From NCBI GenBank assembly GCA_030591905.1, contig JAUVAE010000001.1:1-35321 (forward strand): a stretch of 35,321 nucleotides of DNA, read 5' to 3'. Below, piece by piece: positions 1 to 35,022 of the stretch (within the stretch, counting starts at the first letter, position 1; every line of letters starts with the position of its first letter). A model generated the notes under the pieces. That model worked only from the letters and a program-made list of their open reading frames with translations. It was not told where the DNA came from and did not search any database. Source of the DNA: Candidatus Komeilibacteria bacterium. GTDB lineage: Bacteria > Patescibacteriota > Patescibacteriia > UBA1558 > S5-K13. Both the position numbers and the translations under genes were made by a program.

Positions 1-295
1 AAAAATATTTATCCCGTTAGATGATTTTTCGAAGGAATTTAATGGGACAAAATTAAAAATTATATCATATAAAATAAATGAAAAAATTAATAAATAAATA
101 TTTAATGGGATGAAAAAAACATGCTATCAATGTGAAAACTATGACTGGACAAAACAAAAAATAAAAAATAGAACTACTATTGTTAGAAACCATAGAAAAG
201 AAAAGAAAAATGTCTTAGATTATGTCAGATCTTTGCTATTTTAATTTGATTTATTGTTAGTTTTAGTGTTAAATAAACTAATTAGTAGTAATAAA

Positions 296-440
296 CCCCT
301 CCCTCAATCCCTCCCCTAGTCAGGAGAGGGAAGACGGGGATAAAGACTGATTTAGAAGTAATTTTATAAAAATTAATAGAACTTTGTAAAATTGTCTTTC
401 TCCTGACTAGGAGAGAGATGTCCAAAGGACAGAGAGAGGT
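296..440. repeat. GC-rich hairpin doublet, copy A (divergent left half)
   Basis: Hairpin 308-331 has arms TCCCTCCCC/GGAGAGGGA and loop TAGTCA. An AT-rich spacer follows. Hairpin 395-418 has arms TCTTTCTCC/GGAGAGAGA and loop TGACTA. Mini-hairpin TGTCC-AAA-GGACA lies at 419-431, and the end motif GAGAGAGGT at 432-440 ends 9 nt before the ileS ATG. The right half is nearly identical to copy B at 3528-3573. Confidence 0.85.
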
Positions 441-449
441 TAAAATAAT

Positions 450-3400: not shown

Positions 3401-3458
3401 AACTAAAGAAGTAGAAATTAACAAATTTAAAGTTAAGATTAGTTTAGTTAGCATTTAA
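450..3458 (+). CDS. ileS: Isoleucine--tRNA ligase, eukaryote-like (type 2) form
   Basis: 1002-aa ORF. It carries 'YDGPPFATGLPHYGH' (the HIGH signature in the form I associate with type-2/eukaryote-like IleRS), the 'KMSKRL' KMSKS loop, and 'WTTTPWTLPGN', 'DWSISRQRYWG' and 'AEGQDQTRGWFYTL'. Confidence 0.95.
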   Translation: MNENLKNKKSDLFKKEQEILKFWKDNQIFEKSLKKDSPQGEYSFYDGPPFATGLPHYGHIVASLLKDVFPRYKTMQGYSVRRKWGWDCHGLPVESLVEKDLKIKSKDEIEDRVGVDKFNESCQTYVMKYADEWQKFIPMIGRWVDMEDDYKTMDPEYMESIWWVFKSLWEKGLIYEGYKSMHICPHCETTLSNFEVGLEYKDIKDLSITAKFELINPVGNNDSKESNSNRTSEPKTFVLAWTTTPWTLPGNVALAVGKSIDYVKVELDGKKYILAKELVETVLADKKYTIVEELKGKDLVGKAYQPLFDYYSSNKELENIENGWKIYAADFVTIEDGTGIVYIAPAFGEDDMNLAKENKLPFVQHVFLNGKFTEEMQDFAGMEVKPKEDINKTDIEIIKYLAAKDLLFAKEKYEHSYPHCWRCDAPLLNYATKSWFVKVTDIKDKIIANNKKVNWVPASFKEGRMGKWLEGARDWSISRQRYWGSVLPIWKCDCGEIKVIGSIAELEKLSGKKVEDLHKHTVDKITIKCEKCDNEMKRIPDVLDCWFESGAMPYASVHYPFDPSSLSSQSSDNHGARNKKLKVSLPKNFPANFIAEGQDQTRGWFYTLLVLSTALFDKPAFLNVVVNGMALAEDGKKMSKRLRNYPDPTEMIHKFSADTLRYYLLSSPIVKAGDLCFSEKDLSSIYYRYISTLMNVVSFYKMYAKEDDVNFVEPEHLLDKWILAKLKELKKNITDNLNKYEVKKSVDPIGEFILELSTWYLRRSRDRFKSHDESGTKTLHYVILEFSKLIAPFMPFLAEDLYKEMTHSASSGQAGKEESVHLVTWPEIEKLTKEELSLLEDMETARKVVEKSHNLRDQAGMKVRQPLDSINYNFNKKSLNIKFEQVIAEEVNVKTVEFSKKVADQEVDLDIKLTPELKNEGNLRELVRQINSLRKKANLTINDRVKVYFQSKDLADLILENKEFLQKNVLADDIINDQVDKSLITKEVEINKFKVKISLVSI
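1098..1139. repeat. Imperfect 42-nt hairpin inside the ileS reading frame
   Basis: Outer arms CCTGTCGGA (1098-1106) and TCCAACAGG (1131-1139) pair at 8 of 9 positions. Inner arms GATTC (1113-1117) and GAATC (1122-1126) enclose loop TAAA. The segment encodes the low-complexity stretch PVGNNDSKESNSNRT. Confidence 0.4.
2135..2175. repeat. GC-ended imperfect hairpin inside the ileS reading frame (TTGACCCC-type left end)
   Basis: CCCC (2135-2138) pairs with GGGG (2172-2175), and TTATCC (2145-2150) with GGATAA (2162-2167), around an 11-nt loop. The left end TTTGACCCC resembles the ATTGACCCC ends at 7641 and 8513. The segment encodes DPSSLSSQSSDNHGA. Confidence 0.4.
2865..2894. repeat. In-frame GC-rich island in ileS containing a fragment of the intergenic repeat family
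   Basis: GCTCAGGGCAGGCAGG (2878-2893) matches GCTCGGGACAGGCAGG in repeat copy C (6404-6419) at 14 of 16 positions. It also matches the reverse complement of CCTGCCTGTCCC in copy D (12207-12218). It encodes ...HSASSGQAGKE... Confidence 0.6.
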
Positions 3459-3460
3459 CT

Positions 3461-3573
3461 ACCTCTATCCCTGTCTCCCTTTCTCCTAGTCAAGAGAAAG
3501 GGACTATATGCTTATTTAGTTTTTTTGTCCCTCTCCTGACTAGGAGAGGGATGTCCAAAGGACAGGGAGAGGT
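3461..3573. repeat. GC-rich hairpin doublet, copy B (archetype; REPIN/BIME-like)
   Basis: Terminal inverted repeat: ACCTCT(AT)CCCTGTC at 3461-3475 pairs with GACAGGGAGAGGT at 3561-3573. Hairpin 3476-3503 has a 10-bp stem and a loop containing TAGTCA. The spacer at 3504-3527 contains CTATATGCTTATTTAG. Hairpin 3528-3551 is a perfect 9-bp stem (TCCCTCTCC/GGAGAGGGA) with loop TGACTA. Mini-hairpin TGTCC-AAA-GGACA lies at 3552-3564. Confidence 0.9.
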
Positions 3574-3585
3574 TGAATCTAATTT

Positions 3586-6356: not shown

Positions 6357-6494
6357 ACCTCTCCCTGTCCTTCGGACATCCCTCTCCTAGTTCCCACGAC
6401 TTCGCTCGGGACAGGCAGGAGAGGGACAAGAGAACTAAACGAGCATATAGTCCCTTTCCTCCTGACTAGGAGAAAGGGAGACAGGGATAGAGGC
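6357..6494. mobile_element. GC-rich hairpin doublet, copy C: MITE-like, inverted relative to copy B, with 9-bp target-site duplication
   Basis: Termini ACCTCTCCCTGTC (6357-6369) and GACAGGGATAGAGGC (6480-6494) are inverted repeats. The element is flanked on both sides by AAATTAATT (6348-6356 and 6495-6503). Spacer 6427-6450 matches the reverse complement of the copy B spacer at 20 of 24 positions. Hairpin 6451-6479 is the reverse complement of B 3476-3503. The hairpin with arms 6379-6387/6418-6426 is the reverse complement of B 3528-3551, but its loop is expanded to 30 nt. Confidence 0.85.
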
Positions 6495-6503
6495 AAATTA
6501 ATT

Positions 6504-12649: not shown

Positions 12650-12656
12650 TAGTAAT

Positions 12657-12702
12657 CTTCCCTTTCTCCTGGCTAGGAGAGAGGGATAAGAGGGAGAGAG
12701 GT
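12657..12702. repeat. GC-rich hairpin, copy E (single unit, right-half type)
   Basis: Hairpin 12660-12685 has arms CCCTTTCTCC/GGAGAGAGGG (10 bp, one G-T pair) and loop TGGCTA. The end motif GGGAGAGAGGT at 12692-12702 is the same terminal motif as in copies A and B. Confidence 0.8.
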
Positions 12703-12733
12703 TAGTTAAATGGGCTAATCAAAAGTTCAAAAT

Positions 12734-15909: not shown

Positions 15910-18669
15910 ATGTCTTTTTTTGGTTTAACATCTTTATTAACTTCAATACTAAGTTTAATTATTGGAATTTTTGTAATATGGAAAAATTCAAAGTCTACTC
16001 TTAATAGGGGTTGGTTTTTTGTAAGTATAAGTGCTTCAATTTGGGCGTTTGGTTTATTTGGTGTTGTAGAATCTACTAATCAAGAAAATGCTTTATTTTT
16101 TCAATATATTTTAGATTTTGGCGGCATTCTTATTCCGCTTTTCTTTTTTCTTTTCATATTACATTTATTGAATTTGTATAAAAAGTTGAGAATATTTTTT
16201 TATTTATCTGTTTGTTTTAGTTGTATTTTAATATTAATTAGTTTTACTAAATTGTTTAAATTAGGAGTCTCTCCAAAGTTTGGATTTAATTTTTGGATAG
16301 ATACTGGCCCATTATATATATTATTTCCACTATTTTTTGGCCTTTTAGTAACAGCTTCAATATATTTGATATTGATAAATTTTCGTAATTTACATGGAGC
16401 AAAAAAATTACAGGTAATTTATATTTTATTAACAGCTTTATTTGGTTTTGGTGGTGGACTTACTAATTTCTTTCCACAATTAATAGGGACTTATCCTTTT
16501 GGGAATTTTTTTACTATATTTTATATAGGAGGAATTAGTTATGCCATAGCTAAATATCGTCTTATGGATATTCGTTTAGTTATATCTAAGAGTATTTTAT
16601 ATTTTTTATTAATTGGTTTTGTGGCTACAGCATTTACATCAATAACATTTTTTACAGGAGAAATTCTTAGTAATCAAACGGTTACTTCGCAATTAATAAC
16701 TACTTTAGCAGTATCTTTAATAATAATTATAGGACTAGATCCTTTAAAAAGATTTTTGAGTAATATTACAGATAAGATTTTTTATAGAGGAAAAATCAAT
16801 TATCAAGATGTTTTAAGGAAATTAAGCGAGATTACAGCTAAAGAAATTAATCTAGGAAAATTACTTATTGATTTATCACAAAGTATTGAAAAATTATTAA
16901 AGTATAAAGGGGTAGACTTTTTATATAAAAGTAATAGTTCGGGAATTTATCGAGGAATTATTGATAATACCGGAATTATTACCGATAAAGAGGAGATTGT
17001 TAAATATTTAGAAAATACCAAAGAAATTATTATTACTGAAGAATTAGAAATAAGAGTGCGTGAAAAATTGGGAGAAGAAAAAAAATACTTACTTTCTATA
17101 ATTAAACGTTTACAAAAGATGAAAGTAGGATTAATAGCGCCTATAATTTCAGAAGAAAGGATAATTGCTTTTTTTATTGTTAATAAAAAATTGTCTGATG
17201 ATGTTTTTTCTAGCCAAGATTTAAATTTAATATCAGTGATGAATCCTCAGATTGCTAATGCTTTAGAAAAATCAAAATTATATAATGAAGTCCAAGAATT
17301 TAATGTTAAATTACAAGAAAAAGTTGATAAAGCTACGGAGGAGTTAAAACATGCTAATGCTGATTTAGAAACTCGTAATAAATATTTAACAGCCTTACAA
17401 AAAGTAAGTGGTACTATTAGTAGGAGTTTGGATTTCACAGAAGTAGTTCAATTTATTGCCGATAGTATTCAGACTGAGATTGGTTTTGCAGGAGGAGTTG
17501 TTAATTTTATTGATGAAAAAGATAAAAGTATTTATATCGGGGCGATGACCAAAGATAAAAGAATTGATCAGGCGACTAAAATTTTAGTAAAAAATCCTTT
17601 TGATTATAAAGTTTCCTTAACAGAAAAAGATAATTTAGCAGTTAAGTCAATTCTGAGTGGAGAGATTCAAAAAAGTGCTAAAATTTATGATTTATTCAAA
17701 CCAGCAATTGATCAGAAAATGGGAGAGCTTATTCAGCAAGCTTTAAATATACATTCAGCTGTATCAGTGCCAATTTATTCCGGAAATAAAATTATTGGTT
17801 CTATTGATTTCTTTATTGAAAAACAAATTGATGAAATGAAAGATATTGATATTGAGGTTATGAAATCTTTAGCTGACCAAGCTGGTTTAGTTATTGATAA
17901 TTTAAAATTATATAAACAGATTAGAAAGAAGAACGTAGCTTTAAAACAAGCCAATGTTCATTTGAAAAAATTAGATGAAGCTAAATCAGAATTTTTATCA
18001 ATTGCTTCTCATCAATTACGTACTCCATTAACTGGAATAAAAGGTTATTTATCTATGATTTTAGAAGGTGACTACGGAAAAGTGGATAAAAAACAAGAGA
18101 AAATTATTCAAGATGTATTTAATGCTAGTGATAGAATGAGTAGGTTAATTAATGTTTTTTTGAATGTCTCTAGAATTGAATCTGGTCGTTTAAAGTTAGA
18201 GTATACAGATGTCAATTTAGGAGATTTAATTAATGAATGTATAAAAGATTTAAAATCTCCTGCTCAGAAAAAAGGTTTAAAATTAACTTTCAATCATAAA
18301 AAGAATAAAATTCCAATTATCAGTGCCGACTCTGATAAAATAAAAGATGTAATTCTTAATTTGATTGATAATGCTATTAAATACACTCCTCAAGGTAAAA
18401 TTGATATTAAATTATTAAAACAAGATGATGATCAAATTTTGGTTCAAGTTAAAGATACGGGTATTGGTTTAGATGGTTTTGGAATAGAAAAATTGTTTAG
18501 TAAATTTTCTCGGGGCAATGGTATTTCCAAAATTAATACTGGAGGTTCTGGTTTAGGTCTTTATATTGTTAAAAGGATTATTGAAGAGCATGGTGGAAAA
18601 GCTTGGGCTGAAAGTGAAGGTTTAGATAAGGGAAGTATTTTCCAATTCACATTGCCAATTAATAAATAG
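15910..18669 (+). CDS. Sensor histidine kinase (N-terminal 7TM module, coiled-coil/GAF-like middle, HisKA + HATPase_c)
   Basis: 919 aa with about 7 N-terminal TM helices. The H-box is 'SEFLSIASHQLRTPLTGIKGY', the N-box 'LIDNAIKYTP', the G1 box 'DTGIGL' and the G2 box 'GGSGLGLYIVKRIIEEHGG'. Confidence 0.85.
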   Translation: MSFFGLTSLLTSILSLIIGIFVIWKNSKSTLNRGWFFVSISASIWAFGLFGVVESTNQENALFFQYILDFGGILIPLFFFLFILHLLNLYKKLRIFFYLSVCFSCILILISFTKLFKLGVSPKFGFNFWIDTGPLYILFPLFFGLLVTASIYLILINFRNLHGAKKLQVIYILLTALFGFGGGLTNFFPQLIGTYPFGNFFTIFYIGGISYAIAKYRLMDIRLVISKSILYFLLIGFVATAFTSITFFTGEILSNQTVTSQLITTLAVSLIIIIGLDPLKRFLSNITDKIFYRGKINYQDVLRKLSEITAKEINLGKLLIDLSQSIEKLLKYKGVDFLYKSNSSGIYRGIIDNTGIITDKEEIVKYLENTKEIIITEELEIRVREKLGEEKKYLLSIIKRLQKMKVGLIAPIISEERIIAFFIVNKKLSDDVFSSQDLNLISVMNPQIANALEKSKLYNEVQEFNVKLQEKVDKATEELKHANADLETRNKYLTALQKVSGTISRSLDFTEVVQFIADSIQTEIGFAGGVVNFIDEKDKSIYIGAMTKDKRIDQATKILVKNPFDYKVSLTEKDNLAVKSILSGEIQKSAKIYDLFKPAIDQKMGELIQQALNIHSAVSVPIYSGNKIIGSIDFFIEKQIDEMKDIDIEVMKSLADQAGLVIDNLKLYKQIRKKNVALKQANVHLKKLDEAKSEFLSIASHQLRTPLTGIKGYLSMILEGDYGKVDKKQEKIIQDVFNASDRMSRLINVFLNVSRIESGRLKLEYTDVNLGDLINECIKDLKSPAQKKGLKLTFNHKKNKIPIISADSDKIKDVILNLIDNAIKYTPQGKIDIKLLKQDDDQILVQVKDTGIGLDGFGIEKLFSKFSRGNGISKINTGGSGLGLYIVKRIIEEHGGKAWAESEGLDKGSIFQFTLPINK

Positions 18670-31964: not shown

Positions 31965-32534
31965 ATGGAAGAAATAGAAGTTAAGTTTCTGGATATTGAT
32001 TCGGATTCTTTAATTAAAAAATTAGAAGAGTCAGGTGCAAAGAAAATTTTTGAAAAACTTTATAAAAGGCGAGTTTTTGATTATCCAGATTGGAGACTAG
32101 ATAAAAACCATTCTTGGTTAAGATTAAGAGATGAAGGAGATCAGATTACCTTAGCTTTTAAGAAAAGAGTTAAGCCCGGACAAAAAGGAGAGAATGATCA
32201 AAGTATGCAAGAGAGTGAAATTACAGTTAGTGATTTTGAACAAACTACAGACATTTTATTAAATATTGGATTAATAGAGAAGTCTTATCAGGAAAATAAA
32301 AGAATTCGTTATATTTTAAACGATATTGAGTTTGATATTGATTCTTGGCCTCAGATTCCGACTTATTTAGAAATTGAAGCAGAATCTTGGGAAAAAATTG
32401 AAGAAGCTATTAAATCTTTAGGATTAAATTCAGAAGATAAAAAAATATTCTCCACCACTCAGGTTTATGAGAATTATAAAATGAATTTAAATGATTATCA
32501 GAAAGTTACTTTTCAGGAGATGGTTTTAAAGTAA
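31965..32534 (+). CDS. CYTH-domain protein (triphosphate tunnel metalloenzyme / class IV adenylate cyclase family)
   Basis: 189 aa with the N-terminal ExExK signature 'EIEVKFL', followed by 'RLRDEGDQITLAFKK' and 'YLEIEAE'. Confidence 0.7.
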   Translation: MEEIEVKFLDIDSDSLIKKLEESGAKKIFEKLYKRRVFDYPDWRLDKNHSWLRLRDEGDQITLAFKKRVKPGQKGENDQSMQESEITVSDFEQTTDILLNIGLIEKSYQENKRIRYILNDIEFDIDSWPQIPTYLEIEAESWEKIEEAIKSLGLNSEDKKIFSTTQVYENYKMNLNDYQKVTFQEMVLK

Positions 32535-32540
32535 ATTTAC

Positions 32541-32568
32541 TTTACAAATTTATTTATTGTATTAGAAT
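32541..32568 (+). promoter_or_regulatory. Candidate promoter TTTACA-16-TAGAAT, positioned to start transcription at the leader-ORF ATG
   Basis: TTTACA lies at 32541-32546 and TAGAAT at 32563-32568. The A of ATG 32575 is 7 nt past the -10, so the transcript would be leaderless. Confidence 0.5.
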
Positions 32569-32574
32569 AAAAGT

Positions 32575-32649
32575 ATGAGATATAGATTAACAAGTTTAAA
32601 TTGTTGCAATCTTCTCGAGGCAGTCTCGGGTGGATTATGTTGTTGTTGA
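32575..32649 (+). CDS. Candidate polycysteine leader peptide (24 codons: MRYRLTSLNCCNLLEAVSGGLCCC)
   Basis: I translated this by hand; it lies below the ORF-track cutoff. It has 5 Cys codons out of 24, arranged as CC (32602-32607) and a terminal CCC (32638-32646) followed by TGA. It sits between a promoter-like site and an intrinsic terminator, directly upstream of the cysteine synthase gene. Confidence 0.5.
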   Translation: MRYRLTSLNCCNLLEAVSGGLCCC

Positions 32650-32671
32650 TTTTATTTTCGTAATCTTTATA

Positions 32672-32704
32672 CTCTCGGGACCGCCGAGAGTTTTTTGTTT
32701 TTTT
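32672..32704 (+). terminator. Intrinsic terminator (attenuator) between the leader ORF and the cysteine synthase gene
   Basis: CTCTCGG (32672-32678) pairs with CCGAGAG (32684-32690) around loop GACCG. TTTTTTGTTTTTTT follows, ending at 32704, about 20 nt before ATG 32724. Confidence 0.8.
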
Positions 32705-32723
32705 AATTAATAAAAATAATTAT

Positions 32724-33605
32724 ATGATTTACAATAATATATTAGAATTAATTGGTCGAACACCAATTATCAAGTTAAGAAATAAGAATCCTCAAGTTAA
32801 TTTATATGCTAAATTTGAAGGCAATAATCCCGGTGGTTCAATTAAAGATAGGGCAGCTTTAAATATGATTAAGCAAGCTGAACAGAAGGGGTACTTGAAT
32901 AAGAATAAAATTATTCTAGAAGCTAGTAGCGGAAATATGGGTATTGCTTTGAGTATGATTGGAGCTTATAAAGGTTATAGAGTAAAAATAATTATGTCTA
33001 ATGGAACAAGTATAGAAAGAAGAAAAATTATTAAGAGTTTTGGTGCTGATTTAGTATTGACTGATTCTAGTTTAGGTACTAAAGGAGCTTTAAATTTTGC
33101 TTTAAATTTAGTTAAGAAATATCCTAACAAGTATTGGTTTGCAGATCAATTTAATAATCTAGATAATATGCAAGCTCATTATACTTTTACTGCTGAAGAA
33201 ATCTTAAAAGATTTAGAAAAGATTGATTATTTTGTAGCGGGTATTGGAACTGGGGGAACAATGGTAGGTATTGCTAAAAGGTTAAAAGAAAAAAATTCTT
33301 ATATGAAAGTTATTGGAATTTTACCACCTGCTGGCTATCAAATCCAAGGAATTCAAAATATTAAGAAAGATTTTTTTGGAAAAATTTATAATTCAAATTT
33401 AATTGATAATTTTTTGAAGGTTTCCAAAAAAGAAGCTTTTCAAATTGTGAGAGATGTTGCTAAGAGCGACGGATTATTTCTTGGAATGAGTTCAGGCGCA
33501 AATATTTTTGGAGCGTTTAAATTATCTAAAACAATAAAAAAAGGTAATATATTAACAATATTACCTGATAGAGGAGAAAAATATTTAAGTAGTGGATTAT
33601 TCTAA
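32724..33605 (+). CDS. cysK: Cysteine synthase family PLP enzyme (CysK/CysM-like)
   Basis: 293 aa with 'IGRTPIIKL', the PLP-lysine motif 'NPGGSIKDRAA', 'SSGNMGIALS' and 'GIGTGGTMVGI'. I cannot decide between CysK and CysM by eye. Confidence 0.8.
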   Translation: MIYNNILELIGRTPIIKLRNKNPQVNLYAKFEGNNPGGSIKDRAALNMIKQAEQKGYLNKNKIILEASSGNMGIALSMIGAYKGYRVKIIMSNGTSIERRKIIKSFGADLVLTDSSLGTKGALNFALNLVKKYPNKYWFADQFNNLDNMQAHYTFTAEEILKDLEKIDYFVAGIGTGGTMVGIAKRLKEKNSYMKVIGILPPAGYQIQGIQNIKKDFFGKIYNSNLIDNFLKVSKKEAFQIVRDVAKSDGLFLGMSSGANIFGAFKLSKTIKKGNILTILPDRGEKYLSSGLF

Positions 33606-34529
33606 AATAGTTCCAATAAAATCTTTATAGCCATTGATGAAAGAATTAATATCTATTTTTTGTTTTCCTTCAATTTGAACTATGAGGGGGCAGAGGAGTC
33701 CGTTTTTAGTTTGAATAGCTATTTTATCATCTTCTAAAAATACTTCAGCAGTTTGGTGTTCAGTATTTTTTTCTAGGAATTTAGCTTCAACTATCTTTAA
33801 TAATTTATTATTAAAATAAGTATAAGCCCCGGGCCAATTATAGAAAGCTTTGATTTTATTATTTATATTTTTAGCAGAATTATTCCAGTCAATTAGTCCG
33901 TCTTTTTTTTCTATCATCTGAGCATAAGTAGCTTGATTATTATCTTGAGGATGAGTTTGAATTTCGTTATTGATATATTTATCTAGATTATTTATTAATA
34001 GCTTATTTCCTAAAGAAAATAATTTATTATTTAAAGTTTTATGATCATCTTCAGGGCTAATTGTAATTTTTTTCTGAGCTATAATTGGCCCAGCATCCAT
34101 TTCTTTAGCTAATAACATAATACTTACTCCAGCTTCTTTGTCTCCATTTAGTAATGTTGTTTGCACAGGAGAAGGACCTCGGTATTTAGGTAAAAGAGAG
34201 GGATGAATATTAATAATTCCGAGTGGAAATGAATCTAAAATATCTTGAGGAATCATTGTTCCATAAGAGAGGAGAATGGCTAAATTAGCTTGAGTGTTTT
34301 TTAGAATTTCAATTGATTCTAGATCACTAAGCTTATCCTTTTCAATTATTTTAATATTAGATTGCTCAGCTATTTTTCTAACTGGATTTTGTTTTTTAAC
34401 TCGACCAGTTTTTTTACTAGTTTTAGTAATTATTAATTCAATATTATAATCAGCTTGAATCAGCTCAGTTAATAATTTAGCTGAGTTTTCATCAGAACCG
34501 AAAAAAACTATTTTATTTTTATTTTTCAT
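33597..34529 (-). CDS. fmt: Methionyl-tRNA formyltransferase
   Basis: It carries 'IVFFGSDENSA', 'GIINIHPSLLPKYRGPSPVQ' and 'MDAGPII'. I place the start at ATG 34529 (MKNKNKIVFFGS), not at 34631 as in the ORF track. It overlaps the def stop by 11 nt and the convergent cysK end by 9 nt. Confidence 0.9.
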   Translation of the reverse strand: MKNKNKIVFFGSDENSAKLLTELIQADYNIELIITKTSKKTGRVKKQNPVRKIAEQSNIKIIEKDKLSDLESIEILKNTQANLAILLSYGTMIPQDILDSFPLGIINIHPSLLPKYRGPSPVQTTLLNGDKEAGVSIMLLAKEMDAGPIIAQKKITISPEDDHKTLNNKLFSLGNKLLINNLDKYINNEIQTHPQDNNQATYAQMIEKKDGLIDWNNSAKNINNKIKAFYNWPGAYTYFNNKLLKIVEAKFLEKNTEHQTAEVFLEDDKIAIQTKNGLLCPLIVQIEGKQKIDINSFINGYKDFIGTILE

Positions 34530-35022
34530 CAGCTTGAGCCTGAGCTTGTAATTTTTTAAATTTATTTTTACCAGTAGTAAATTTTTTAATTTTATCTGTA
34601 AAAATAATACCATTAATATGATCCATTTCATGTTGAAAAACTGTAGCCATTAATTGTTTAGCTTTAAGTTTTTTCTTATTTCCATTCTGATCTTGATATT
34701 GTAAAATTATCTTTCTAGATCTAGATATATAACCAGTGATGTCTGGAAAGGAAAGACAACCTTCATCAAATTTTTGTTTTAATAAAGATTTACTTTTTAT
34801 CTGAGGATTAATAAAAGCTTGAGGACCTTGGTCAGTATTAACAACAATAAGTCTCATATTTAATCCTACTTGATTAGCCGCTAATCCAATACCATCATAT
34901 TTGATCATGGCTTTTTTCATTTCTTTAATAATTCTATTTAATTGGGAATCATTAAAATCCTTAACTTCGTTAAGTTTTGTTCTCAGTATTTTATTTGGAT
35001 ATGTTACAATATTTAATTTCAT
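34519..35022 (-). CDS. def: Peptide deformylase
   Basis: 167 aa with 'GIGLAANQVG', 'EGCLSFP' and 'HEMDH'. Confidence 0.92.
   Translation of the reverse strand: MKLNIVTYPNKILRTKLNEVKDFNDSQLNRIIKEMKKAMIKYDGIGLAANQVGLNMRLIVVNTDQGPQAFINPQIKSKSLLKQKFDEGCLSFPDITGYISRSRKIILQYQDQNGNKKKLKAKQLMATVFQHEMDHINGIIFTDKIKKFTTGKNKFKKLQAQAQADEK

What the first reader, a model, noticed from the sequence alone, without database searches (positions are those of the whole stretch)
32541..32723. Polycysteine, probably leaderless, leader ORF plus intrinsic terminator directly upstream of cysteine synthase: a candidate Cys-sensing attenuator
The spacer between the CYTH and cysK-family genes contains three elements in order.

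1. A promoter-like site: TTTACA-16-TAGAAT (32541-32568).
2. Seven nt later, with no SD, ATG 32575 opens MRYRLTSLNCCNLLEAVSGGLCCC-TGA (32575-32649). It has 5 of 24 codons for Cys, arranged as a CC pair and a terminal CCC run.
3. After a further 22 nt there is a textbook terminator: CTCTCGG/CCGAGAG plus a T-tract ending at 32704, about 20 nt before the cysK ATG.

The ORF contains CUCGAG (32614-32619) and CUCGGG (32625-32630). These quasi-palindromes can pair with each other or, using G-U pairs, with the CUCGGG in the terminator's 5' arm (32674-32679). That provides the alternative pairings needed for ribosome-position-dependent antitermination.

Runs of the cognate amino acid in a leader peptide are the hallmark of classical attenuation (trp, his, leu, thr, pheA). 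As far as I recall, Cys-run leaderless small ORFs regulating sulfur/cysteine genes have been reported in mycobacteria, but I know of no report in CPR-like bacteria.

I cannot derive the exact switching logic by eye. A stall at the CC pair would cover 32614-32619 and fits the trp-type model. A stall at the terminal CCC does not obviously fit.
Basis: partly seen in the sequence, partly recalled or inferred. Interest (0 to 1): 0.78.

Follow-up and report, generated by a model that had tools for sequence, protein, structure and literature searches.

The report
Cysteine-sensing leader-peptide attenuator upstream of cysK
A tiny cysteine-rich reading frame, two competing RNA hairpins and a terminator sit in front of a cysteine synthase gene. 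The arrangement is conserved in at least 25 related loci from candidate-phyla-radiation bacteria and Bacteroidota-like genomes, and it has the full architecture of a classical attenuator that raises gene expression when charged cysteine tRNA runs short.

Summary
These are TTTACA-16-TAGAAT, ATG 32575 six nt after the -10 hexamer, the sORF MRYRLTSLNCCNLLEAVSGGLCCC*, CUCGAG/CUCGGG, and an 8-bp terminator with a T tract.

It is not a chance ORF. Every cysK/M-like homolog at 54% identity or more with readable upstream DNA carries the same module, in about 25 distinct loci. Rfam has no match.

The module consists of:
- a start codon just after a -10-like box;
- a 24-30 codon sORF with a CC/CCC cluster at codons 10-15;
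- hairpin A:B starting within -5 to +4 nt of that cluster;
- a variable second Cys cluster;
- terminator C:D.

The alternative helix B:C (antiterminator) forms standard pairs in 96.7% of cells, with compensatory changes. In 15-17 of 23 leaders, a ribosome mask placed on cluster-1 Cys codons is the condition that collapses the predicted terminator. Other frames are closed, third codon positions vary most, and one member has an SD.

Best explanation: trp-type, ribosome-mediated transcription attenuation that senses Cys-tRNA, probably on a leaderless transcript. The mechanism is known, and Cys versions are known in mycobacteria and upstream of Rhodobacterales cysS. This family and its hosts appear unreported. 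The second Cys cluster is unexplained, and nothing has been tested experimentally.

The parts
32541..32568 (+). Promoter-like site TTTACA-16-TAGAAT. The -10 hexamer ends 6 nt before the sORF ATG, so the predicted transcription start falls at or next to the A of ATG.
   Evidence: 10/12 match. The same geometry is present in L081 (TTTACA-16-TAAGAT-6 nt-ATG) and in most family members. The TSS has not been mapped.
32575..32649 (+). Leader sORF of 24 codons plus TGA: MRYRLTSLNCCNLLEAVSGGLCCC*
   Evidence: An in-frame homologous sORF is present in all 23 leaders analysed; the other two frames are stop-free in 0/23 and 1/23. Third-codon-position variability is in excess.
32602..32607 (+). Cys cluster 1 (TGT TGC, codons 10-11), the proposed sensing codons.
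   Evidence: A CC, CCC or C-R-C cluster sits at codons 10-15 in every family member, and the A stem starts within -5 to +4 nt of its end. Masking a ribosome here lowers the predicted terminator probability.
32608..32619 (+). Segment A (AAUCU-U-CUCGAG), the 5' strand of the anti-antiterminator hairpin A:B.
   Evidence: A:B hairpin -11.6 kcal/mol. Covariation in the family alignment.
32624..32636 (+). Segment B (U-CUCGGG-U-GGAUU). It pairs either with A (hairpin) or, through 32624-32630, with 32674-32680 (antiterminator B:C).
   Evidence: B:C duplex -9.3 kcal/mol. The B:C helix forms standard pairs in 96.7% of cells across 22 leaders, and 3 pairs show compensatory changes.
32638..32646 (+). Cys cluster 2 (TGT TGT TGT) directly before the stop codon, lying in a U/G-rich tract after hairpin A:B. 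Its role is unexplained.
   Evidence: It holds 0-3 Cys across the family and is absent in L095/L157. A ribosome mask here leaves the predicted terminator intact.
32671..32704 (+). Intrinsic terminator: C arm 32671-32678 (ACUCUCGG), loop 32679-32683, D arm 32684-32691 (CCGAGAGU), then U5-G-U7.
   Evidence: hairpin -12.9 kcal/mol. The stem is conserved and covaries across the family.
32724..33605 (+). Regulated gene: a PLP-dependent cysteine synthase family protein (CysK/CysM-like, 293 aa).
   Evidence: Pfam PALP, 1e-62. NCBIfam cysKM subfamily scores 340 bits against a cut-off of 344.

Best explanation
The spacer encodes a ribosome-mediated (leader-peptide) transcription attenuator that senses charged tRNA-Cys and controls read-through into the cysK/M-like gene.

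Proposed sequence of events:
1. Transcription starts at or within a few nt of the sORF AUG, and a ribosome begins translating the 24-codon leader.
2. When Cys-tRNA is plentiful, the ribosome passes the CC codons (32602-32607) and runs on to the stop codon. Segment B is then either covered by the ribosome or re-paired with A behind it.
3. The terminator C:D (32671-32691 plus the U tract) therefore forms, and transcription stops about 20 nt before cysK.
4. When Cys-tRNA is scarce, the ribosome stalls with a cluster-1 Cys codon in its A site. Its footprint covers segment A (32608-32619).
5. The freed segment B (32624-32630) pairs with the terminator's 5' arm (32674-32680) as soon as that arm is transcribed. 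The terminator cannot form, and RNA polymerase reads into cysK.
6. Without any translation, A:B forms and termination is the default.

Shown here: the elements exist, and the sORF, the three helices and their geometry are conserved and covary.

Inferred: the transcription start, translation of the sORF, stalling, and the regulatory outcome.
For: (1) Conservation with the gene.
- The module is upstream of every cysK/M-like homolog at 54% identity or more with readable upstream DNA.
- These are L081/82, L085-L106, L116, L120, L157, L172-174, L176 (partial) and L177, plus L114 at 50%.
- The upstream neighbours differ among loci: CYTH, GNAT, Rho, a TonB-dependent receptor and others.
- The module is absent from homologs at 52% identity or less: L001-L080, L107-L113 and the other loci with readable upstream DNA. 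The only exceptions are L114 (50%), which has the module, and L009 and L169/170, which carry different Cys-rich sORFs.
- A covariance model built from 22 leaders finds exactly one plus-strand copy per positive locus. This includes loci not used to build it: L172 (92 bits) and L173 (86 bits).
- In the 80 distant loci the best hit was a weak one in L009 (21 bits, E = 0.45), itself a different Cys-rich leader. L159 gave another weak hit (E = 0.28).

(2) Evidence for coding.
- The Cys frame is open from a start codon to a stop in 23/23 leaders. The other frames are open in 0/23 and 1/23.
- Start codons vary only among ATG, GTG and TTG.
- L094 has a 20-nt leader with GAGGGG placed 5 nt before its ATG.
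- Cys codons interchange TGT and TGC.
- Third codon positions carry about twice the entropy of positions 1 and 2 (permutation p = 0.04 and 0.02).

(3) Structure.
- RNAalifold recovers A:B and the terminator.
- A:B plus C:D form standard pairs in 88% of cells, and 9 pairs have double changes.
- The antiterminator B:C forms standard pairs in 96.7% of cells, and 3 pairs have compensatory changes. Slid controls reach 67.5% at most.
- B, C and D change together. The pattern A/U/A in most leaders becomes G/C/G in L104, L105 and L172.

(4) Geometry.
- Cluster 1 lies at codons 10-15.
- The A stem starts -5 to +4 nt from the end of cluster 1.
- The energies of A:B, B:C and C:D are comparable.

(5) Ribosome-mask folding.
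- In 15-17 of 23 leaders the terminator probability falls from 0.88 or more to 0.45 or less when the A site is on a cluster-1 Cys codon.
- For codons five or more past cluster 1 the probability stays at 0.83 or more in almost all leaders that terminate by default (L081 0.71; L095 falls to 0.04 at its stop codon).
- In the window the fall is from 0.97 to 0.37-0.52.
- The result holds for 3' footprint edges from +10 to +15.

(6) Known RNA families.
- There is no Rfam match, and none to T-box or SAM riboswitches even at E up to 10.
Against: - There are no expression, TSS or termination data for any member.
- Equilibrium folding does not switch in L094, L098, L105, L106 and L172, switches only partly in L092 and L116, and switches only partially in the window itself. 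The argument there rests on kinetic (co-transcriptional) reasoning that was not simulated.
- The second Cys cluster is frequent. In L085 and L176 it is conserved through synonymous changes. Yet a stall there is predicted to favour termination, so the model does not explain it.
- -10-like hexamers are common in 27%-GC DNA.
- The periodicity p-values are modest, and the sequences are phylogenetically related.
- Whether transcription and translation are coupled in these organisms is unknown.
Confidence: 0.82

Rival explanations
1. An RNA-only switch, such as a riboswitch or a tRNA- or protein-binding leader, uses the A:B, B:C and C:D helices. On this reading the ORF is a by-product of the RNA sequence and is not translated.
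For: - The core 60 nt are almost invariant between the window and L081.
- Much of the peptide conservation, such as GLG...PRS, is explained by the stems.
- The leader folds better than shuffles, z = -4.4.
Against: - No Rfam family matches, and T-box and SAM riboswitches do not match at E up to 10.
- The start codon position, the open frame (23/23 against 0-1/23), ATG/GTG/TTG interchange, the SD in L094, TGT/TGC interchange and the third-position excess all point to translation.
- The only universally conserved unpaired feature is the Cys-codon cluster, sitting exactly one ribosome half-footprint upstream of A.
- No conserved junction or loop suggests a ligand pocket.
Confidence: 0.06
2. The sORF is translated and senses cysteine, but the output is not intrinsic termination. 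It could instead be translational coupling or RBS unmasking, as in mycobacteria, or Rho-dependent polarity.
For: The experimentally studied polycysteine leaderless sORFs of mycobacteria act by unmasking the RBS of the downstream gene (10.1101/834739). Actinobacterial cys leaders lack terminators (PMC1262725).
Against: - Every family member here has a canonical hairpin plus U tract between the sORF and the gene.
- That hairpin's 5' arm is the conserved partner of B.
- The cysK start lies about 20-30 nt beyond the U tract in AU-rich, SD-less sequence that is not part of any conserved helix.
Confidence: 0.06
3. The small Cys-rich peptide is itself the functional product, for example a metal- or redox-active micropeptide or a precursor peptide. 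The hairpin would then be just a partial terminator between two genes.
For: Cys positions are conserved at both ends of the peptide in many members. The cluster-2 peptide SGGICLCLT is identical in L085 and L176 despite three synonymous changes.
Against: - Outside Cys cluster 1, and residues dictated by the stems, the peptides are not conserved between subgroups.
- Cluster 2 is lost in L095/L157.
- The B:C alternative helix and the footprint geometry have no role in this reading.
- No modifying enzymes are consistently adjacent.
Confidence: 0.03
4. Chance juxtaposition: the hairpin terminates the upstream CYTH gene, and the sORF is a random ORF in AT-rich spacer DNA.
For: Promoter-like hexamers are not enriched locally. 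Small ORFs are abundant.
Against: - The module travels with the cysK-like gene past different upstream genes.
- It is conserved over 50-80% protein identity.
- The covariance model and the generic scan find it nowhere else in about 0.8 Mb.
Confidence: 0.01

Closest known systems
Classical leader-peptide transcription attenuators (trp, his, leu, thr, pheA, ilv operons of Proteobacteria)
   Same: - A short leader ORF carries a run of codons for the pathway's end-product amino acid.
- Four segments give 1:2, 2:3 and 3:4 alternative helices.
- An intrinsic terminator lies just upstream of the biosynthetic gene.
- A stalled ribosome masks segment 1.
   Different: - The regulatory amino acid is cysteine.
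- The start codon sits about 6 nt after the -10 box (probably leaderless), not behind an SD.
- There are only 2-3 regulatory codons.
- There is an extra, variable Cys cluster next to the stop codon.
- The hosts are Patescibacteria (CPR) and Bacteroidota-like genomes.
- There is no sequence relationship and no Rfam match.
Polycysteine leaderless sORFs of mycobacteria, the 'Cys ribulon' (Canestrari et al. 2020, bioRxiv 10.1101/834739; predicted earlier by Seliverstov et al. 2005, PMC1262725)
   Same: - A Cys-codon-rich short ORF starts at, or very near, the 5' end of the transcript, upstream of cysteine-metabolism genes.
- A ribosome stalled at Cys codons is the sensor.
- There is a Cys run near the stop codon.
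   Different: - In mycobacteria the output is translational: the stalled ribosome blocks a structure that sequesters the downstream RBS, and no terminator hairpin is present.
- Here the output structure is a canonical intrinsic terminator, and the universally conserved Cys codons are the internal cluster, not the C-terminal one.
uORFC-8-2 motif upstream of cysS in Rhodobacterales (Brewer et al. 2021, PMC8632094)
   Same: - A predicted ribosome-mediated attenuator with two tandem Cys codons at about positions 14-15 of a uORF.
- Two stems and a U-tract terminator.
   Different: - It controls cysteinyl-tRNA synthetase rather than a cysteine synthase.
- It occurs in alpha-proteobacteria.
- Its Cys codons lie inside the first stem.
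- It has no second cluster.
- The sequence is unrelated, and no Rfam hit was obtained for any of the leaders.
T-box and S-box/SAM riboswitch leaders that control cysK/cysE/cysS in Firmicutes
   Same: They control sulfur amino-acid genes through terminator/antiterminator competition, and T-box leaders also read tRNA charging.
   Different: There is no Stem I/specifier loop, T-box sequence or SAM aptamer, and no Rfam hit at E up to 10. The leader is only about 120 nt and contains a conserved translated frame.

Membership tests
Ribosome-mediated (leader-peptide) transcription attenuator | Short ORF with its own start signal, upstream of and on the same strand as an amino-acid biosynthesis gene | tested here: met
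   sORF 32575-32649. A homologous in-frame sORF is present in 23/23 leaders, while the other frames are closed. L094 has an SD.
Ribosome-mediated (leader-peptide) transcription attenuator | Clustered codons for the cognate amino acid within the leader ORF | tested here: met
   A CC, CCC or C-R-C cluster lies at codons 10-15 in all members. Cys is 0.58% of codons in the window's genes.
Ribosome-mediated (leader-peptide) transcription attenuator | Intrinsic terminator between the leader ORF and the structural gene | tested here: met
   An 8-bp stem (5 G-C pairs), a 5-nt loop and U5GU7 at 32671-32704. It is present in all members and covaries.
Ribosome-mediated (leader-peptide) transcription attenuator | Antiterminator helix mutually exclusive with the terminator | tested here: met
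   B:C forms standard pairs in 96.7% of cells over 22 leaders, and 3 pairs show compensatory changes. Slid controls reach 67.5% at most.
Ribosome-mediated (leader-peptide) transcription attenuator | An upstream segment that sequesters the antiterminator strand and is covered by a ribosome stalled at the regulatory codons | tested here: met
   The A:B hairpin starts -5 to +4 nt after cluster 1. A footprint mask on cluster-1 codons lowers the terminator probability in 15-17 of 23 leaders. This is geometry and modelling only.
Ribosome-mediated (leader-peptide) transcription attenuator | Read-through increases when the cognate aminoacyl-tRNA is limiting | not testable with these tools
   This needs Term-seq, a reporter assay, or in vitro coupled transcription-translation.
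Mycobacterial polycysteine leaderless sORF attenuators | The transcript begins at the sORF start codon (leaderless) | tested here: inconclusive
   The spacing from -10 hexamer to start codon is 6 nt in 13 of 24 leaders and 8-11 nt in most of the others. L085 (17 nt) and L094 (20 nt plus an SD) are leadered. No TSS data exist.
Mycobacterial polycysteine leaderless sORF attenuators | [quoted passage not shown] | tested here: not met
   The conserved competing structure is a hairpin plus U tract that ends 20 nt before the cysK ATG. The start region is not in any conserved helix. Compare 10.1101/834739.
uORFC-8-2 motif (cysS leader, Rhodobacterales) | Located upstream of cysS in Rhodobacterales, with the Cys codons inside the first stem | tested here: not met
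   The downstream gene is a PALP cysteine synthase. The hosts are Patescibacteria and Bacteroidota-like genomes. The Cys codons lie mostly 5' of stem A.
T-box leader | Stem I with a specifier loop, and the conserved T-box antiterminator sequence | tested here: not met
   No RF00230 or other Rfam hit, even at E up to 10, on 32400-32800, and none at gathering score on 12 family loci.

The most novel reading that the evidence does not exclude
The leader and the cysK-like gene form a self-contained regulatory cassette shared by horizontal transfer between Patescibacteria (Parcubacteria and Peregrinibacteria groups) and Bacteroidota. In it, a leaderless 5'-AUG lets a 70S ribosome load directly behind RNA polymerase. 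The U/G-rich second Cys cluster after hairpin A:B acts as a second functional element rather than as decoration. It could be a hairpin-dependent pause that synchronises polymerase and ribosome, or a second stalling site about one ribosome length (roughly 10-13 codons) after the first. That would be a leaderless, two-checkpoint form of transcription attenuation, and direct sequence evidence for tight transcription-translation coupling in CPR bacteria.
Probability: 0.2. Interest if true: 0.72.

Novelty: new member of a known kind. Interest (0 to 1): 0.6.

Why it matters
- CPR/Patescibacteria are usually described as metabolically minimal and poorly regulated. A conserved amino-acid-sensing attenuator shows that they tune one of their few retained biosynthetic enzymes to tRNA-Cys charging. 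It also implies that translation is coupled to transcription in these organisms.
- The leader is functional evidence that this divergent PALP enzyme really supplies cysteine. The enzyme scores just below the NCBIfam cysKM cut-off.
- The leader adds a well-supported cysteine member, with a full terminator/antiterminator design, to the leader-peptide attenuators.
- It links the mycobacterial leaderless poly-Cys sORFs, which act on translation, with classical terminator-based attenuation.
- It provides a covariance model that can annotate an element now missing from Rfam.
- Its presence in both CPR and Bacteroidota-like genomes suggests that a gene can move together with its regulator.

Tried and rejected
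- **Rfam.** The whole window at gathering score, 32400-32800 at E up to 10, and 12 family loci gave nothing. T-box, SAM and other known leaders are rejected.
- **Genome-contig scan with the CysK protein.** It returned only relatives at 52% identity or less, none with the homologous leader.
- **P0002 and P0003** (81% and 80% identical) lie on 1.1-kb contigs that stop 22-27 nt upstream of the gene, so they were no use.
- **Long-range helix.** The window MFE shows a helix between the 5' end of the sORF and the cluster-2 region. It is not conserved in L081 or in the alifold consensus, so it was not adopted.
It is impossible in most family members, so B:C was adopted instead.
- **Pairing of C in partial transcripts** was measured as a kinetic proxy. 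It did not discriminate, because C pairs with something upstream in every state.
- **Code 25 (UGA read as Gly)** would extend the sORF. It is rejected because ORFs are intact under table 11 and TGA ends 3 of 31 genes.
- **Lack of an SD** as evidence for a leaderless start is rejected, because most genes here lack an SD.
- **Literature searches** for such a leader in Patescibacteria or Bacteroidetes found nothing. The library is limited to open-access text.
Full report
**1. The observation**

- TTTACA-16-TAGAAT lies at 32541-32568 (10/12 consensus matches).
- An ATG at 32575, six nt after the -10 hexamer, opens MRYRLTSLNCCNLLEAVSGGLCCC and ends at TGA 32647-32649.
- CUCGAG is at 32614-32619, CUCGGG at 32625-32630, and a second CUCGGG at 32674-32679.
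- The terminator-like hairpin ACTCTCGG/GACCG/CCGAGAGT lies at 32671-32691 and is followed by T5-G-T7 up to 32704.

The gene downstream matches Pfam PALP at 1e-62. It scores 340 bits on the NCBIfam cysKM subfamily model, just under the 344-bit cut-off.

The 142-nt leader folds with z = -4.4 relative to shuffles, into a hairpin inside the sORF plus the terminator. No Rfam family matches at gathering score or at E up to 10.

Taken alone, the window evidence is suggestive but not compelling. Promoter-like hexamers are not enriched in this 27%-GC DNA. By my composition-based estimate, a 5-Cys sORF is only a roughly 0.07-per-window event. For comparison, Cys is 0.58% of codons in the window's genes.

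**2. Relatives**

The closest informative relative has a CysK 74% identical, on syntenic JGI contigs L081/L082 with the same CYTH, cysK and fmt gene order. Its spacer has the same organisation:
- TTTACA-16-TAAGAT, 6 nt, then ATG;
- sORF MSYKLFNLNCCNLLEAISGGLCCC*;
- terminator GCTCTCGG-GGTTG-CCGAGAGT plus T's.

CysK homologs at 54-62% identity all carry a recognisably homologous leader. These are L085-L106, L116, L120, L157, L172-L174, L176 (partial) and L177. L114, at 50%, carries it too.

Example peptides are:
- MKQANIYNQINNCCCGLGIVPRSACLCL
- MLHSLHITTNTCCNALGTASGGICLCLT
- MKKINFIFSCCCSPQIIPRLCFVC
- MKKIITIKTCCCIFRTYPRNAYLCL
- MINKIFSLNCCESSPVKLGVSCCR
- MKTLDKTQSCCRTPKLTLGGIRCCC
- MNFNKTLTKIISCCCGTGTVPGSACLCM

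The exceptions are L114 (50%), which has it, and L009 and L169/170, which have different Cys-rich sORFs. L107-L113 show only a TTGACC...TAAACT promoter.

The genes upstream differ from locus to locus: CYTH, a GNAT acetyltransferase, Rho, a TonB-dependent receptor, a phage-type integrase. The element therefore belongs to the cysK-like gene and not to its neighbour.

A covariance model built from 22 leaders (R1) behaves specifically.
- It finds exactly one plus-strand copy in every positive locus.
- This includes L172 (92 bits) and L173 (86 bits), which were not used to build it.
- In the 80 distant loci the best hit was a weak one in L009 (21 bits, E = 0.45). That hit turned out to be a different Cys-rich leader. 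L159 gave another weak hit (E = 0.28).

A motif-free scan looked for an ATG sORF of 12-45 codons with at least 3 Cys followed by a hairpin plus T run. It covered all loci and the window on both strands. It hit only positions immediately upstream of cysK-like genes, or of a metY-cysK pair in L009.

**3. Host range**

The window's enolase has named relatives only in Patescibacteria: the Parcubacteria group, Komeilibacteria and Falkowbacteria. 'CPR-like' is therefore right.

Named CysK relatives that carry the leader include a Parcubacteria group bacterium (P0006, locus L085).

The leader also occurs in a 'Bacteroidales bacterium' MAG (P0046, loci L173/L174). It is also on a 4.27-Mb contig, next to a SusC-like TonB receptor and a hybrid histidine kinase (L172). 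The family is therefore not restricted to CPR.

**4. Is the sORF translated?**
- The Cys frame is open from a start codon to a stop codon in 23/23 leaders. Over the same span the +1 and +2 frames are stop-free in 0/23 and 1/23.
- Starts are ATG in 20 leaders, GTG in L116 and L106, and TTG in L105. L105 and L106 differ only by TTG versus GTG at the same position.
- The -10-like hexamer ends 6 nt before the start in 13 of 24 leaders and 8-11 nt before it in most of the others.
- The two clearly leadered members are informative. L094 has a 20-nt leader with GAGGGG 5 nt before its ATG. L085 has a 17-nt A-rich leader.
- Cys codons interchange between TGT and TGC.
- In 11 main-group leaders, entropy at third codon positions is about twice that at positions 1 and 2. 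For codons 2-12, which lie outside the helices, the values are 9.2 against 4.4 and 5.4 bits (permutation p = 0.04). Over the whole sORF p = 0.023.
- L085 and L176 encode the identical C-terminal SGGICLCLT despite three synonymous differences.
- UGA is a true stop in this genome.

Lack of an SD is not evidence for a leaderless start here, because most of the window's genes lack one. The conserved spacing from -10 to ATG is the argument for a leaderless transcript, and it remains an inference.

**5. RNA architecture**

I label four segments:
- A: 32608-32619
- B: 32624-32636
- C: 32671-32678, with the pairing extending to 32680
- D: 32684-32691

RNAalifold on the 22-leader alignment recovers A:B and C:D. 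With those two helices specified, 88% of cells form standard pairs and 9 of 16 pairs show double changes. All slid controls are at 58.5% or below.

The decisive test is the alternative helix B:C.
- In window coordinates it pairs 32624-32630 with 32674-32680.
- It forms standard pairs in 96.7% of cells.
- Compensatory changes occur at 3 of 7 positions.
- Slid registers fall to 67.5% or below.
- Changes are coordinated across B, C and D. The A/U/A pattern of most leaders becomes G/C/G in L104, L105 and L172. Two mutually exclusive helices sharing strand C would produce this pattern.

Energies are comparable across the family:

| Helix | Window (kcal/mol) | Family range (kcal/mol) |
|---|---|---|
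| A:B | -11.6 | -6.5 to -15.4 (one outlier, L101, at -2.8) |
| B:C | -9.3 | -7 to -17 |
| C:D | -12.9 | -7 to -18 |

**6. Geometry and mechanism**

Cluster 1 lies at codons 10-15. Stem A starts -5 to +4 nt from the cluster's last nucleotide. B ends 9-22 nt before the stop codon. C starts 17-34 nt after the stop.

I imposed a ribosome footprint, from 18 nt before the A site to 12 nt after it, as an unpaired constraint at every codon, and varied the 3' edge from +10 to +15.
- In 15-17 of 23 leaders the equilibrium probability of the terminator drops from 0.88 or more to 0.45 or less when the A site is on a cluster-1 Cys codon. In 13 leaders it drops to 0.1 or less.
- In some leaders the codon immediately before cluster 1, or early N-terminal codons, also lower the probability.
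- For codons five or more past cluster 1, including cluster 2 and in most leaders the stop codon, it stays at 0.83 or more in almost all leaders that terminate by default. L081 falls to 0.71, and L095 falls to 0.04 at its stop codon.
- In the window it goes from 0.97 to 0.37-0.52.
- L094, L098, L105, L106 and L172 do not switch, and L092 and L116 switch only partly. These leaders have strong terminators, so a kinetic argument is needed for them: B:C would form before D is made. I did not simulate this.

The best-supported mechanism is therefore trp-type attenuation. A stall at cluster 1 masks A, B captures C, and polymerase reads through. Otherwise A:B, or a ribosome sitting on B, leaves C free to pair with D, and transcription terminates.

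Shown: the conserved elements, helices and spacing. Inferred: the TSS, translation, stalling and the outcome.

**7. What is not explained**

The second Cys cluster lies in a U/G-rich tract directly after hairpin A:B. It is CCC in the window and C-L-C in most members.

It is common, but it varies from 0 to 3 Cys. L095 and L157, two independent contigs, have lost it through point substitutions, giving SASLRLQ.

A stall there is predicted to favour termination.

Possible roles are:
- a hairpin plus U-rich pause site that synchronises polymerase and ribosome;
- a second stalling site about one ribosome length behind which a trailing ribosome would sit on cluster 1;
- a remnant of duplication, since A resembles C, B resembles D, and each hairpin is followed by a U-rich tract.

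None of these was tested.

**8. Comparison with known systems**

The mechanism class is classical leader-peptide attenuation. Cysteine-specific precedents exist.
- Actinobacterial cys leaders have no terminator (PMC1262725).
- In mycobacteria these were shown experimentally to be leaderless polycysteine sORFs that act by unmasking the downstream RBS (10.1101/834739).
- The predicted uORFC-8-2 attenuator lies upstream of cysS in Rhodobacterales. It has tandem Cys codons at positions 14-15 and a terminator (PMC8632094).

The present family works like the classical and uORFC-8-2 type, which act on transcription. It resembles the mycobacterial type in its probable leaderless start. It is not a member of either by sequence, host or regulated gene.

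Full-text searches found no report for Patescibacteria or Bacteroidetes, with the caveat that the library is limited.

**9. Verdict**

It is a new, well-conserved member of a known kind of regulator. Its value is moderate to high for CPR biology and RNA-element annotation, and it is not a new mechanism. The confidence figure refers to architecture-based inference, since no experiment exists.

Noticed in passing
L009:1502-1680: A Melioribacteraceae MAG carries a different Cys-rich leader. The sORF MKNINKNIIPAESLICCCMCMSFMRGKDII is followed by the terminator AAGCCCTTC-CCTAAA-GAAGGGCTT. Downstream is a gene starting MGNQQETNYRFETLQL (metY/O-acetylhomoserine sulfhydrylase-like by my recollection of that N-terminal motif), which precedes the cysK homolog. 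GGGAAGG inside the sORF can pair with the terminator's CCCTTCC arm. Cys-codon attenuators may therefore be more widespread in sulfur amino-acid operons.
   Followed up: partly
L169:1045-1173 and L170:1045-1173: The sORF MGCWGGQNENCQC(E/A)RILLWLCVKS, followed by a weak hairpin (GCCGG/CTGGC) plus a T run, ends about 28 nt upstream of a distant (33-34%) CysK homolog.
   Followed up: no
window 293-444, 3440-3577, 6357-6515, 12133-12213, 12652-12710: A family of GC-rich palindromic intergenic repeats occurs in both orientations between genes of this 27%-GC genome. A typical copy is TCCCTCTCCTGACTAGGAGAGGGA followed by TGTCCAAAGGACAGGGAGAGG. Some copies end about 12 nt before start codons (ileS, recO, tgt). 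They look REP- or MITE-like or like structured intergenic elements.
   Followed up: partly
window, all gene starts: Only about 7 of 31 genes have even a loose SD-like purine run within 25 nt of the start. Most starts are preceded by AU-rich sequence such as 'aattatATG'.
   Followed up: partly
L095:339-479 and L157:1029-1169: This natural variant of the leader has lost both Cys codons of the second cluster by point substitutions, and its stop codon is shifted by one codon (…SASLRLQ*). Cluster 1, both hairpins and the terminator are intact.
   Followed up: yes
L087:2390-3885 (also L088-L091): In this subgroup the cysK-like gene is followed on the same strand by an 81-aa ORF and a 415-aa ORF with no Pfam hit on record. 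The attenuator may control a small operon there. In the window the gene stands alone, facing fmt.
   Followed up: no
window 8720-9094 and 10960-11361: Two genes for '23S rRNA intervening-sequence' family proteins (PF05635) flank a 7TM histidine-kinase N-terminal fragment and an asparaginase-like gene. A second 7TM-GAF histidine kinase lies at 15910-18669.
   Followed up: no
window 33597-34631 (-) and 34519-35022 (-): The longest fmt ORF overlaps the def gene by 113 nt, and its formyltransferase domain starts only at residue 40. The true fmt start is probably further downstream. The fmt ORF also overlaps the 3' end of the cysK-like gene by 9 nt, in convergent orientation.
   Followed up: no
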